Shown in pieces: positions 23,461 through 27,744 of a DNA stretch of 64,000 nucleotides. Position 1 is the stretch's first letter; each line of letters starts with the position of its first letter. The notes beneath the pieces were generated by a model that was not told the DNA's origin, made no database searches, and saw only the letters and a list, made by a program, of their open reading frames with translations. Position numbers and translations under genes: made by a program. Origin of the DNA: the human T2T-CHM13v2.0 reference genome, Homo sapiens; assembly GCF_009914755.1 (NCBI RefSeq), contig NC_060927.1; one strand, written 5' to 3'.

Positions 23461-25229
23461 GAATCAAGTGTTACTTTGTCTCAAGTTTGTCAGGTCTTAG
23501 TAATTTCCTTAAATGTATTTAATATCGGCTTCATGCAAGTACCATTTGTTAGGAAGTAGGAGTGGAGGTATCAGAGGAATATAGTACAGTCTGGTTTCAA
23601 AGAGCTGAAAGCCTTAGTGAAGGATAGAGAGGAAAATATACCACCATAGAGGAAGCTGACAGTCATAATTGTACTAATGCAGGTATAGACAAAATGCCCT
23701 CTGGAGAAAGAGAAGAATTCTCATTGGAGGACTATTAAATCACGTGGATGTGGCAGTATTGATTGTTAACACTTGGGTTTAGCATTACAGCAAAAATAAC
23801 TCTAATAAATCAAACCCAACCTGAGAAAAAACCTGAGACCATCTGGCAGGGATAGAGAATACTAATAGATGGAATTAAGATTTCTGCTATAAGGTACCCA
23901 CTTTAGGCTGTGGGGAATGTGTATTATTACGCTAAAGTAACCCTATTATATCTTTTATTGTCCTAAATACATAATTATTTTCTAAATGTATGCTAAACAT
24001 ATAAGTGTTTTACTTTTCTTAGAGTTACTTAGAGCACTGCAAAACTAGCTATTCCTTATGATACTCTGACGAGGCATTACTAATCACCAAGTGGCAATTA
24101 AAAATATTGAGGCAGACTATTAAAACTAAATGGATATTCTAGGATATGCTCTAGAACCTAAACCTTTTAGCCATGGTTCAAATGTCACAGTAATACATTG
24201 GGACTTAGAAAATCTTAGAGTGAAAATTATGCCTGCAATATGAAGATTGAGACATTATTTATTACATAGTGCTTGTTTGTGGAATGGGAGGCTTAGACTC
24301 ATTACAGTATAAAAGCAAGGAGAAAAGTTTCTAAGATGACGTATATTGGCTATAGTAATTCACTTTGGCCAAAGCAAATCACAAAAGAAAACTTTATAGT
24401 TTTGTTTTCTCTTTACGAATTACATTACTGGTTTAACTAATCTGGGTCCTTTCCTAGATATGTATGGTAAACTAAAATAAATATCTGAAACTGAAGCACT
24501 TATAAACTTGTTTTTAAATGAACGATAAAGATGTTAAAATGTCACAGACTAAATGATAAAATATGCCTATCAACCTACTTAACCTGTCATATTTTTTACA
24601 TATTAGACTTATATTTTCAGAAATAAATACATATTTCTTCATAGTTCTTAAAATTACCTCTGACTCCTAGATATATAATTTTTGCTTCTGAGAGTAGAGC
24701 TTGCCTTGTCTGTCATAGGCCCAGCAAACAGTCAAACATAACTTACTTCTTTATTGTGAGCATTGATTTGTTATGCTTGTGATTTTTTTTTCAATCAAAC
24801 TCCATTATTGATGTCACAAAGGTTAGTTACAGTTTCTTGACATGTTGCCATCAAAATCTCTCTGAGGCACATGACAATTAGCATATATATAAACTTAATT
24901 TCTTTTAATAAAAGACACTAATAAAATACTTTCACAAGTCACATGTAAAACTCTGAGTATTTGCAAATAGCAGATAACGTGTATCCTAATAATACTTTCT
25001 TACCCAATTTACAAGTATAATGTTTGTGTAAAAGAGAATGCTATTAAGCAGCAAATGTAAATTTCTTCTATATTTTGATGGGTTAAGAAGCCACTTAGAA
25101 AGTATTTGCTAGGCATATGGGTTGTGAAACTCTCAAGGCCATTAGATGAGGAGGAAGTAATGAATGGTATTTCTGCTTGGATAGGATATTTCCTTATTTT
25201 GCTTCTCTCAAGTCAGATTTAAAAATTTC

Positions 25230-25256
25230 ATCAGATGAGATCGAGCGCATTCAGGG
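25230..25256 (-). pseudogene. 5S rRNA fragment (nt 17-43) captured at the L1 5' junction
   Basis: Reverse complement ccctgaatgcgctcgatctcatctgat versus human 5S ccctgaacgcgcccgatctcgtctgat: 24/27 identical. All three differences are transitions, two at CpG. Confidence 0.8.
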
Positions 25257-25257
25257 G

Positions 25258-27744
25258 AAAAAGGAGAATTTTAGACCAATATCCCTGATGAACATCGATG
25301 CAAAAATCCTCAATAAAATGCTGGCAAACCGAATCCAGCAGCACATCAAAAAGCTTATCCACCACAATCAAGTTGGCTTCATCCCTGGGATGCAAGGCTG
25401 GTTCAACATATGCAAATCAATAAATGTAATCCATCTTGTAAACTGAACCAAAGACAAAAACCACATGTTTATCTCACTAGATGCAGAAAAGGCCTTCGAC
25501 AAAATTCAACAGCCTTCATGCAAAAAACTCAATAAACTAGGTATTGATGGGACGTGTCTCAAACTAATAAGAGCTAGTTATGACAAACCCACAGCCAATA
25601 TCATACTGAATGGGCAAAAACTGGAAGCATTCCCTTTGAAAACTGGCACAAGACAGGGATGCCCTCTCTCACCACTCCTATTCAACATAGTGTTGGAAGT
25701 TCTGGCCAGGGCAATGAGGCAAGAGAAAGAAATAAAGGATATTCAATTAGGAAAAGAGGAAGTCAAATTATCCCTGTTTGCAGATGACATGATTATATAT
25801 TTAGAAAACCCCATCATCTTAGCCCAAAATTTCCTTATGCTGATAAGCAAATTCAGCAAAGTCTCAGGATACAAAATCAATGTGCAAAAAACACAAGCAT
25901 TCCTATACACCAATAACAGACAAACAGAGAGCCAAATCATGAGTGAACTCCCATTCACAATTGCTTCAAAGAGAATAAAATACCTAGGAATCCAACTTAC
26001 AAGGGATGTGAAGGACCTCTTCAAGGAGCACTACAAACCACTGCTCAACAAAATAAAAGAGGACACAAACAAATGGAAAAACATTCCATGCTCATGGATA
26101 GGAGGAATCAATATTGTGAAAATGGCCATACTGCCCAATGTAATTTATGGATTCAATGCCATCCCCATCAAGCTACCAATGACTTTCTTCACAGAATTGG
26201 AAAAACAAAACCACAACAACAACAAAAAAACCAAAAACTTTAAAGTCCATATGGAACCAAAAAAGAGCCTGCGTTGCCAAGACAACCCTAAGCCAAAAGA
26301 ACAAAGCTGGAGGCATCACACTACCTGACTTCAAACTATACTACAAGGCCACAATAACTAAAACAGCATGGTCCTGGTACCAAAACAGAGATATTGAAGA
26401 ATGGATCAGAATAAGGCCCTTGGAAATAACACCACACATCTACAACCATCTGATATTTGACAAACCTGACAAAAACAAGAAATGGGGAAAGGATTCCCTA
26501 TTTAATAAATGGTGCTGGGAAAATTGGCTAGCCATACGTAGAAAGCTGAAACTGGATCCCTTCCTTACACCTTGTACAAAAATTAATTCAAGATGAACTA
26601 AAGACTTAAATATTAGACCTAAAACCATAAAAACCCTAGAATAAAACCTAGGCAACACCATTCAGGACATAGGCATGGGCAAGGACTTCATGTCTAAAAA
26701 ACCAAAAGCAATGGCAACAAAAGCCAAAATTGACAAATGGGATCTAATTAAACTAAAGAGCTTCTGCACAGCAAAAGAAACCACCATCAGAGTGAACAGG
26801 CAATCTAAAGAATGGGAGAAAATTTTTACAATCTACCCATCTGACAAAGGACTAATATCCAGAATCTAGAAAGAATTTAAACAAATTTACCAGAAAAAAT
26901 CAAACAACCTCATCAAAAAGTGGGCAAAGGATATGAACAGACACTTCTCAAAAGAAGACATTTATGCAGCCAACAGACACATGAAAAAATGCTCATCATC
27001 ATTACTGGCCATCAGAGAAATGCAAATCAAAACCACAATGAGGTACCATCTCACACCAGTTAGAATGGCGATCATTAAAAAGTCAGGAAACAACAGGTGC
27101 TGGAGAGGATGTGGAGAAATAGGAACACTTTTACACTGTTGGTGGGACTGTAAACTAGTTCAACCATTGTGGAAGACAGTGCGGCAATTCCTCAAGGATC
27201 TAGAACTAGAAATACCATTTGACCCAGCAATTCCATTACTGGATATATACTCAAAGGATTATAAATCATGCTGCTATAAGACATGTGCACACGTATGTTT
27301 ATGGTGGCACTATTCACAATAGCAAAGACTTGGAACCAACCCAAATGTCCATCAATGGTAGACTGGATTAAGAAAATGTGGCATGTACACACCATGGAAT
27401 ACTATGCAGCCATAAAAAATGATGAGTTCATGTCCTTTGTAGGGACATGGATGAAGCTAGAAACCATCATTCTGAGCAAACTATTGCAAGGACAGAAAAT
27501 CAAACACCACATGTTGTCACTCACAGGTGGGAACTGAACAATGAGAACACTTGGAAACAGGATGGGGAACATCACACACTGGGGCCTGTCGTAGGGTGGG
27601 GGGGAGGCCAGTCATTAGGAGATATACCTAATGTAAATGACGAGTTAATGGGTGCAGCACACCAACATGGCACATGTATACATATGTAACAAACCTGCAC
27701 GTTGTGCACATGTACCCTAGAACTTAAAGTATAATAATAATAAT
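25258..27744 (+). mobile_element. 5'-truncated LINE-1 (L1PA5-like): RT domain to 3'UTR, disabled ORF2, sense to host gene
   Basis: ORF2 RT peptides ([32 protein letters not shown]) with stops and frameshifts; L1PA 3'UTR ending accctagaacttaaagtataat. TSD aaaaatttcatca (25221-25233) / acgaatttcatca (27745-27757) at a TT/AAAA endonuclease site. Confidence 0.95.

What the first reader, a model, noticed from the sequence alone, without database searches (positions are those of the whole stretch)
25221..25270. Antisense 5S rRNA fragment captured between TSD and L1 5' end: possible twin priming in trans
Seen: the L1PA has a TSD (aaaaatttcatca, 25221-25233; 3' copy 27745-27757), but 24 non-L1 bases separate it from the first L1 base (about 25258). 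Bases 25230-25256 (atcagatgagatcgagcgcattcaggg) are the reverse complement of 5S rRNA nt 17-43 at 24/27 identity. The last 4 nt of the TSD (ATCA) are themselves complementary to 5S nt 40-43 (UGAU). Established: L1 chimeras with U6 or 5S RNA exist, but as I know them the small RNA is in the same orientation as L1; twin priming inverts part of the same L1 RNA. Inference: the second-strand 3'-OH of the target annealed by 4-nt microhomology to a different RNA (5S, plausibly near the ribosome-born L1 RNP), was extended about 23 nt by ORF2p RT, and was then joined to the L1 cDNA. This would be an inverted two-RNA retro-chimera, and a class of such junctions could be missed because the fragments are too short for repeat annotation.
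Basis: partly seen in the sequence, partly recalled or inferred. Interest (0 to 1): 0.8.

Follow-up and report, generated by a model that had tools for sequence, protein, structure and literature searches.

The report
Backwards 5S rRNA scrap at L1 junction
A 27-base backwards copy of 5S ribosomal RNA really does sit between the target-site duplication and the start of a truncated L1 element, but this kind of inverted 5S/L1 chimera was catalogued in print in 2025-2026, so this is an unusually short, unlisted example of a known kind.

Summary
Window 25230-25256 is the reverse complement of human 5S rRNA nt 17-43 at 24/27. The next best 5S match anywhere in the 64 kb window is 20/27. All three differences are transitions and two are at CpG. 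The piece lies inside one TSD pair (10 nt exact, 11/13), at a TTT/AAAAA target site, directly 5' of an L1 truncated in ORF2. The last four TSD bases, ATCA, double as 5S nt 40-43 in loop C.

It is not new. Law & Burns (bioRxiv 2025; Cell Genomics 2026) list 27 5S/LINE-1 chimeras. I count 23 as antisense, with limits clustered at loops C and D, and they propose twin priming.

This locus is not in their readable tables. At 27 nt it is shorter than their shortest antisense piece (36 nt).

One addition: in 11 of their 23 antisense loci the TSD overlaps the 5S piece by 4 nt or more, and their text never uses the word microhomology. The empty site could not be checked.

The parts
25221..25233 (+). 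5' copy of the target-site duplication (AAAAATTTCATCA). It is preceded by TTT, which gives a TTT/AAAAA L1 endonuclease-type site.
   Evidence: the 10-nt exact word at 25224-25233 recurs at 27748-27757; 11/13 over the 13-mer.
25230..25233 (+). 4-nt microhomology ATCA. These bases belong to the TSD and are also complementary to 5S nt 40-43 (UGAU). This is the inferred annealing and priming site.
   Evidence: alignment. In the 5S MFE fold, nt 37-40 and 43-44 are unpaired and 41-42 sit in a 2-bp stem within loop C.
25230..25256 (-). 5S rRNA nt 17-43, so the + strand reads antisense; 24/27 identity. Positions 25234-25256 (23 nt) are the 5S-only filler.
25257..25257 (+). Single G of ambiguous origin. 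It is either the first L1 base (2 of 11 related L1 copies have G at this position) or an extra, untemplated base.
25258..27744 (+). 5'-truncated L1 of about 2.49 kb (primate L1PA-type; subfamily not determined here). It starts at the beginning of the ORF2 reverse-transcriptase domain and ends in (TAA)n with almost no A tail.
   Evidence: 40 of 3554 candidates scored, the 39 non-self copies 94-95% identical. RVT_1, E = 6.6e-11 and 6.1e-28; private divergence 64/1772 = 3.6%; 3' end.
27745..27757 (+). 3' copy of the target-site duplication (ACGAATTTCATCA).

Best explanation
This is one L1 retrotransposition event of roughly 20 million years ago that produced an antisense 5S/LINE-1 chimera, and it is a very short member of the class catalogued by Law & Burns.

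Inferred steps:
1. L1 endonuclease nicked the bottom strand at 5'-TTTTT/AAA-3', and L1 RNA was reverse transcribed from its 3' end.
2. The top strand was cut 13 nt downstream, which left ...TTTCATCA-3'OH.
3. That end annealed through ATCA to UGAU (nt 40-43) in hairpin loop C of a 5S rRNA molecule, or of a 5' fragment of one. ORF2p reverse transcriptase extended it from nt 39 to nt 17. This wrote antisense 5S onto the top strand.
4. The nascent strand then left the 5S template and continued on, or was joined to, the L1 first-strand cDNA, which had stopped at the start of the RT domain. The junction has 0-1 nt of homology.
5. Three later transitions, two of them CpG decays, account for the 24/27 identity.

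Shown directly: the 5S identity, orientation and extent; the enclosure by one TSD pair; the endonuclease-type site; the 4-nt overlap; and the L1 boundary. Inferred: that the template was RNA, that ORF2p was the enzyme, and the order of steps.
For: 5S identity and orientation.

Single event: the TSD pair encloses both the 5S piece and the L1. No remainder of 5S lies on either side (best 9/16 and 11/27). The 86-nt junction is unique in the genome.

Target site: TTT/AAAAA.

Not L1-derived: the filler's best match in two copies of about 6.1 kb, on both strands, is 16-18/27. Not nearby DNA: best 18/27 in the rest of the window.

The 5S limit at nt 43 falls within the main cluster of catalogued antisense loci; 12 of 23 have 3' limits at nt 40-50. 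It also falls in loop C (passage).

Same architecture seen directly in catalogued locus L034: TSD TGTCCTGAGATC, then antisense 5S 40->1, then L1, then the TSD again. Its last 6 TSD bases equal 5S nt 41-46.

TSD/5S overlap is at least 1 nt in 18 of 23 and at least 4 nt in 11 of 23 antisense loci of Table S2.

The decay fits a canonical 5S source of the same age as the L1. The L1 private divergence is 3.6%, so about 0.7 changes are expected in the 19 non-CpG sites (1 seen), and 2 of 4 CpGs are lost.

Twin priming with microhomology at the target junction is the standard model for L1 5' inversions (Kojima 2010, PMC2912911, passages).
Against: No orthologous empty site could be examined, so insertion of the 5S piece and the L1 at the same time rests on the TSD alone.

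The 3' TSD copy differs at 2 of 13 positions (CG for AA), and the element has almost no A tail.

The 5S piece stops at nt 17. In 14 of the 23 catalogued antisense loci it reaches nt 1-5.

One solitary 5S fragment, L011 on chr12, carries all three variants and is identical to the filler over 5S nt 17-42. I regard it as parallel decay, but I did not measure how often the nt-29 variant occurs in an unbiased set.

Nothing here shows that the template was RNA rather than a cDNA or DNA fragment.
Confidence: 0.78

Rival explanations
1. The event is the same, but nt 43 is not a choice of annealing site on intact 5S rRNA. Instead it is the 3' end of a pre-cleaved 5' fragment of 5S, cut in loop C. The target 3' end paired with the fragment's last bases, or ORF2p jumped onto its end. 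Law & Burns suggest such 'targeted processing'. The template could also be a variant or pseudogene transcript carrying U at nt 29.
For: Catalogued limits cluster tightly at nt 40-50 and 89-102. The authors raise processing as an explanation (passage). Of the 17 dispersed 5S loci I inspected, 16 are solitary pieces ending at nt 42-50 or 90-92. The nt-29 variant recurs in several dispersed copies.
Against: TSD/5S overlaps of 4-13 nt in 11 of 23 loci, and 6 nt in L034, show that base pairing sets the exact junction. The limits spread over about 10 nt rather than sitting at one cleavage site. Pairing and processing do not exclude each other.
Confidence: 0.3
2. DNA-level filler. A short double- or single-stranded DNA piece was captured by end joining between the target end and the L1 cDNA, using the 4-nt microhomology. 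The piece would be a 5S cDNA made elsewhere, or a copy of a 5S pseudogene such as the chr12 fragment. No priming on 5S RNA occurred at the site.
For: L011 (chr12) shares all three variants with the filler. End joining also uses microhomology (Kojima 2010 passages).
Against: The three variants are what decay from canonical 5S predicts at this L1's age. Capture gives no reason for the strong antisense bias (23 of 27), nor for limits at loops C and D. 5S RNA is far more abundant than any one 42-bp pseudogene, which is a point from general knowledge.
Confidence: 0.1
3. Two separate events. A solitary antisense 5S fragment was already at the site and the L1 landed in or next to it, or the reverse. 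On this reading the TSD assignment is wrong.
For: Solitary 5S nt 1-42/43 fragments with their own TSDs are common.
Against: The 10-nt TSD flanks the 5S piece and the L1 together (13 of 5000 shuffles reach 10 nt). No 5S nt 1-16 or nt 44-70 lies on either side of the L1 or upstream. No direct repeat flanks the 5S piece alone.
Confidence: 0.03
4. Chance resemblance of untemplated or unrelated filler bases to 5S.
For: None beyond the short length of the piece.
Against: 24/27 here against a window-wide maximum of 20/27 elsewhere. The reversed-pattern control gives 0 hits in the genome against 202. All mismatches are transitions.
Confidence: 0.01

Closest known systems
Antisense 5S rRNA/LINE-1 chimeric insertions (Law & Burns, bioRxiv 10.1101/2025.02.02.635956; Cell Genomics 2026, PMC13174262). 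I saw passages of both versions and Table S2.
   Same: A 5S piece lies directly 5' of a 5'-truncated L1PA, in antisense orientation. One TSD pair and an endonuclease-type site enclose both. The 5S 3' limit is in loop C (nt 43, against a catalogued cluster at 40-50). Twin priming is the proposed mechanism.
   Different: The piece is only 27 nt (23 unique), against 36-97 nt in the catalogue. It stops at nt 17 rather than nt 1-5. The 5S piece lies almost wholly outside NCBI's repeat mask, which begins at 25255 (hub annotation). The locus is absent from the four readable supplement tables.
Twin priming (Ostertag & Kazazian 2001, recalled; described in Kojima 2010, PMC2912911, passages)
   Same: The top-strand 3'-OH left by second-strand cleavage anneals by microhomology to an RNA and primes a second reverse transcription. 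The result is an inverted segment at the 5' end inside the TSDs.
   Different: The classical case inverts part of the same L1 RNA. Here the second template is a different RNA, 5S, and only about 23 nt were copied.
Sense-oriented small-RNA/L1 chimeras: U6/L1, U3/L1 and the 5S/L1 chimeras of Buzdin et al. 2003 (recalled; paper not held). They arise by template switching or RtcB RNA ligation (Moldovan 2019, PMC6789731; search listing and abstract only).
   Same: A cellular small RNA is fused to a 5'-truncated L1 within one TSD pair.
   Different: Those have the small RNA in the same orientation as the L1. They are explained by events on the first strand or at the RNA level, which cannot produce an antisense piece.
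Extra or filler nucleotides at 5' junctions of truncated L1s (Kojima 2010; Zingler 2005, seen only in the reference list)
   Same: Short non-L1, non-target bases lie between the TSD and the L1 5' end.
   Different: Here the filler has an identifiable template and orientation.

Membership tests
Antisense 5S/LINE-1 chimeric insertion (Law & Burns) | A 5S-derived segment abuts the 5' end of a 5'-truncated LINE-1 | tested here: met
   The 5S piece ends at 25256 and L1 homology starts at 25258. The L1 part begins in RVT_1.
Antisense 5S/LINE-1 chimeric insertion (Law & Burns) | The 5S segment is antisense to the L1 | tested here: met
   The + strand matches the reverse complement of 5S at 24/27; the sense orientation reaches at most 14/27.
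Antisense 5S/LINE-1 chimeric insertion (Law & Burns) | One TSD pair and an ORF2p endonuclease-type site enclose both parts | tested here: met
   10-nt exact TSD, 11/13 over the 13-mer, reached in 13 of 5000 shuffles. Site TTT/AAAAA.
Antisense 5S/LINE-1 chimeric insertion (Law & Burns) | Cross-species alignment shows both parts arrived together (empty site in outgroups) | not testable with these tools
   No primate genomes or multi-species alignments are on hand. Indirect support only: the decay of the 5S piece fits the L1's 3.6% private divergence.
Antisense 5S/LINE-1 chimeric insertion (Law & Burns) | The 5S 3' limit lies at loop C (about nt 40-50) or loop D (about nt 89-102) | tested here: met
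   The limit is nt 43. 12 of 23 catalogued antisense loci end at nt 40-50. Loop position.
Antisense 5S/LINE-1 chimeric insertion (Law & Burns) | The start of 5S (nt 1-5) lies at the L1 junction. This is 'common' in the catalogue, not universal. | tested here: not met
   The piece stops at nt 17. 9 of 23 catalogued antisense loci also stop internally, at nt 8-50, so this feature does not define the class.
Classical twin priming (L1 5' inversion) | The inverted segment derives from the same L1 RNA | tested here: not met
   The filler's best match in two L1 copies of about 6.1 kb, both strands, is 16-18/27. It is 5S.
Classical twin priming (L1 5' inversion) | Microhomology between the target 3' end and the start of the inverted segment | tested here: met
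   ATCA is shared by the TSD and 5S nt 40-43.
Template-switch or RNA-ligation chimeras (U6/L1 type) | The small RNA is in the same orientation as the L1 | tested here: not met
   Orientation is antisense.

The most novel reading that the evidence does not exclude
This locus may be the visible tip of a hidden layer. Many 'extra nucleotides' at L1 and Alu 5' junctions could be sub-35-nt antisense copies of abundant structured RNAs such as 5S, tRNA, U5 or Y RNA. They would be written when the second-strand 3'-OH pairs by a few bases with an exposed hairpin loop and ORF2p extends it briefly before moving to the L1 cDNA.

If so, RepeatMasker-based catalogues undercount trans twin priming. Loop-directed microhomology, rather than prior RNA cleavage, would set the recurrent limits at nt 40-50 and around nt 90. 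The many solitary 3'-truncated 5S fragments with TSDs would be the same reaction without an L1 partner.
Probability: 0.3. Interest if true: 0.5.

Novelty: new member of a known kind. Interest (0 to 1): 0.3.

Why it matters
The locus is a clean, base-resolved example of trans twin priming. The junction shows which four bases of the target paired with which four bases of 5S loop C.

It also shows that annotation-based catalogues have a length floor of about 36 nt, below which such events go unseen.

Together with the TSD/5S overlaps that I counted in the published table, it points to base pairing with exposed loops as the reason 5S pieces end where they do. The published text explains those ends by 'targeted processing' and never uses the word microhomology.

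It does not change the picture of L1 biology, because the class and the mechanism are already in print.

Tried and rejected
- Rfam cmscan of 25150-25330 at E <= 10 gave 6 weak hits (5 C/D-box snoRNA models plus RT-1 sRNA; best SNORD24, 20.5 bits against a cut-off of 41) and no 5S. A whole-window scan at gathering scores gave 0 hits. The snoRNA-like hits come from an 8-nt inverted repeat plus TGATGA/CTGA words, and I dismissed them.
- Inverted-L1 origin of the filler: rejected.
- Copy of nearby DNA: rejected.
- Nested insertion: rejected.
- Segmental duplication or a propagated chimera: rejected, because the 86-nt junction is unique.
- More cryptic short cases: a degenerate 27-mer gave 5 hits and a degenerate 19-mer gave 10 hits. 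Of the ten 19-mer hits, one is the window itself, four were loci already inspected, and the five new ones all proved to be solitary 5S pieces. No new L1 chimera turned up. The chr1 array swamps any looser pattern because only 100 rows are listed.
- An unbiased frequency for the nt-29 variant could not be obtained for the same reason.
- Ostertag & Kazazian 2001 and Buzdin 2003 are not held, so I cite them from recall or from others' text.
- The L1 subfamily was not assigned. Only a private divergence of 3.6% was measured, and 2 of the 11 relatives (L024, L025) aligned poorly over part of their length.
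Full report
**1. What is in the sequence**

The + strand reads ...agtcagattt AAAAATTTCATCA gatgagatcgagcgcattcagggg AAAAAGGAGAATTTTAGACC... 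at 25211-25275. At the other end it reads ...aacttaaagtataataataataat ACGAATTTCATCA ttctgaatag... at 27721-27767.

I did not rely on a remembered 5S sequence. I searched the window's own genome with Rfam RF00001. All 47 scored matches lie in the tandem array on contig 1, and I took the gene from locus L002.

Window 25230-25256 matches the antisense strand of that gene at 24/27, corresponding to 5S nt 17-43. The best match in the opposite orientation is 14/27. The mismatches lie at 5S nt 37, 29 and 24. All three are transitions. Two are C-to-T or G-to-A changes at CpG, and the one at nt 29 is not at a CpG.

**2. Is it more than chance?**

I scored every 27-mer of the 64 kb window against both strands of 5S. 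Outside this site and its shifted frames the best match is 20/27, found once.

In the whole genome the 27-mer has 202 matches at up to 3 mismatches, against 0 for the reversed-pattern control. The exact string occurs only here. All 21 hit loci whose sequence I inspected are 5S copies: 8 array copies and 13 dispersed loci. The other listed chr1 hits fall in the 5S array interval.

Rfam's covariance model does not report the piece. This is expected for a 27-nt fragment and explains why annotation misses it. By the hub's table, NCBI's repeat mask begins at 25255.

**3. The surroundings**

*L1 body.* Downstream of 25257 the sequence matches thousands of genomic copies. Of 3554 candidates, 40 were scored; apart from the window itself, the other 39 are 94-95% identical. 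Its translation hits Pfam RVT_1 from the first codons (E = 6.6e-11 and 6.1e-28). So this is an L1 truncated at the start of the ORF2 RT domain.

*L1 boundary.* I aligned 11 relatives across the boundary. L1 reads ...gacacaac AAAAAAAGAGAATTTTAGACC, so homology begins at 25258. The G at 25257 is L1-like in 2 of 11 copies and otherwise counts as an extra base.

*TSD.* The longest word shared by the 80 nt upstream and the 40 nt after the L1 tail is AATTTCATCA (25224-25233 and 27748-27757). A word of 10 nt or more appeared in 13 of 5000 shuffles. The element ends in (TAA)n with almost no A tail, and I leave this blemish unexplained.

*Age.* This L1 copy differs at 64 of 1772 columns where at least 9 of 11 relatives agree, which is 3.6%. 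Two of the relatives aligned poorly over part of their length. At the 0.17% per million years used by Law & Burns, that is about 20 million years.

*Decay of the 5S piece.* That divergence predicts about 0.7 changes in the 19 non-CpG bases of the 5S piece, and 1 is seen. CpG decay is commonly taken to be about ten times faster (recalled), which predicts loss of about half the four CpGs, and 2 are lost. The piece is therefore consistent with canonical 5S inserted at the same time as the L1.

**4. Alternatives tested**

- *Inverted L1 segment.* Two L1 copies that share 6156 nt give at best 16-18/27 on either strand.
- *Nearby DNA.* The best match in the rest of the window is 18/27.
- *Nested insertion into an older 5S fragment.* No trace of 5S nt 1-16 after the L1 or near the junction (best 9/16), and none of nt 44-70 upstream (best 11/27).
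- *Duplicated or propagated chimera.* The 86-nt junction is unique in the genome.
- *Specific pseudogene donor.* One solitary fragment on contig 12 (L011) shares all three variants and is identical to the filler over 5S nt 17-42. The two CpG variants recur in most dispersed copies. The nt-29 variant appears in 5 of the 22 other hits at up to 2 mismatches, a set biased towards it. I read this as parallel decay. I could not obtain an unbiased frequency, because the array swamps the 100-row listing.

**5. Mechanism**

The antisense 5S bases are continuous with the 3' end of the 5' TSD on the top strand. This is the product expected if the top-strand 3'-OH left by second-strand cleavage primed reverse transcription on 5S RNA.

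The last four TSD bases, ATCA, are complementary to 5S nt 40-43. In the MFE fold of the genomic 5S sequence, nt 37-40 and 43-44 are unpaired at the tip of helix III (loop C), and nt 87-90 form loop D.

Copying ran from nt 39 to nt 17. The strand then continued on, or was joined to, the L1 cDNA with 0-1 nt of homology.

A first-strand template switch cannot give this orientation, because it would need an antisense 5S template. The anatomy is shown directly. The RNA nature of the template, the enzyme and the order of events are inferred.

**6. What is known**

[quoted passage not shown] I read passages of the 2025 preprint and of the 2026 Cell Genomics version, and their Table S2.

[quoted passage not shown] They attribute antisense bias to twin priming.

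My counts from the '5S' sheet of their table:

| Feature | Count |
|---|---|
| Loci listed | 27 |
| Antisense loci | 23 |
| Antisense loci with 3' limit at nt 40-50 | 12 of 23 |
| Antisense loci with 3' limit at nt 80-102 | 11 of 23 |
| Antisense loci with 5' limit at nt 1-5 | 14 of 23 |
| Length of antisense 5S piece | 36-97 nt |

A search for papers holding 'twin priming', '5S rRNA', 'antisense' and 'LINE-1' found 4 papers, of which 2 were listed: this paper and Moldovan 2019.

**7. What this locus adds**

*It is not catalogued.* The only chr3 entry of the 5S sheet is elsewhere. No coordinate beginning 1748-1753 and no 'NAALADL2' occurs in the four readable tables, and the number search was validated. 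My hg38 position of about chr3:175.1 Mb is only an estimate from recalled gene coordinates. Three PDF supplements could not be read.

*It is the shortest case,* at 27 nt against a catalogue minimum of 36 nt. It lies below the floor of a census that starts from RepeatMasker annotations.

*It points to microhomology.* The word 'microhomolog' does not occur in the published text. By the table's own coordinates, however, the upstream TSD overlaps the 5S piece by at least 1 nt in 18 of 23 antisense loci and by at least 4 nt in 11 of 23.

I read one of those loci directly, L034 on contig 10. Its structure is TSD TGTCCTGAGATC, then antisense 5S nt 40->1, then L1, then A-rich tail, then the TSD again. 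Its last six TSD bases equal 5S nt 41-46.

So base pairing of the target end with loop nucleotides appears general. That complements, or competes with, the authors' 'targeted processing' explanation.

**8. Verdict**

The mechanism is the best available reading, at a confidence of about 0.78. In novelty terms this is a new member of a known kind.

The decisive test, an empty site in primates that lack this L1, could not be run here.

Noticed in passing
L010-L018, L035, L036, L039, L043-L046 (own genome, various contigs): Of 17 dispersed 5S-bearing loci inspected, 16 are solitary 3'-truncated 5S pieces. Seven end at nt 42-50 and nine at nt 90-92. They have no L1 and no A tail, and most where I read the flanks have their own short direct repeats (for example a 13-14 nt repeat around L011 and 13-16 nt around L043). 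In some the repeat overlaps the 5S end by 3-5 nt (L043, L045). None is full length. They look like the same loop-primed reaction without an L1 partner. The nick sites are mostly not TTTT/AA-like.
   Followed up: partly
window 25227-25234 and 25285-25292: TTCATCAG at the TSD/5S junction and CTGATGAA inside the L1 form an exact 8-nt inverted repeat. This means the target 3' end ...TTCATCA was also complementary to 7 nt of the L1 RNA about 30 nt downstream of the truncation point, so classical cis twin priming could have occurred there but did not. The same repeat, plus TGATGA/CTGA words, explains the weak C/D-box snoRNA-like cmscan hits (SNORD24, 20.5 bits against a cut-off of 41).
   Followed up: partly
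window 27731-27757: The L1 ends in (TAA)n with almost no A tail. The 3' TSD copy reads ACG where the 5' copy has AAA. That is two adjacent differences which create a CpG, which is odd for an element only about 3.6% diverged.
   Followed up: no
L011 (own genome contig 12, about 98,606,878): A solitary antisense 5S nt 1-42 fragment carries the same three variants as the window's piece (identical over nt 17-42) and is flanked by a 13-14 nt direct repeat. I read this as parallel decay, but it is the one observation that could point to a variant 5S source.
   Followed up: partly
L035, L036, L046 (own genome contigs 8, 11, 19): Solitary 5S nt 1-90/92 pieces that are 96.7-98.9% identical to the array gene, so they are evolutionarily recent. 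L046 sits inside a long polypyrimidine (TTCC-like) microsatellite.
   Followed up: no
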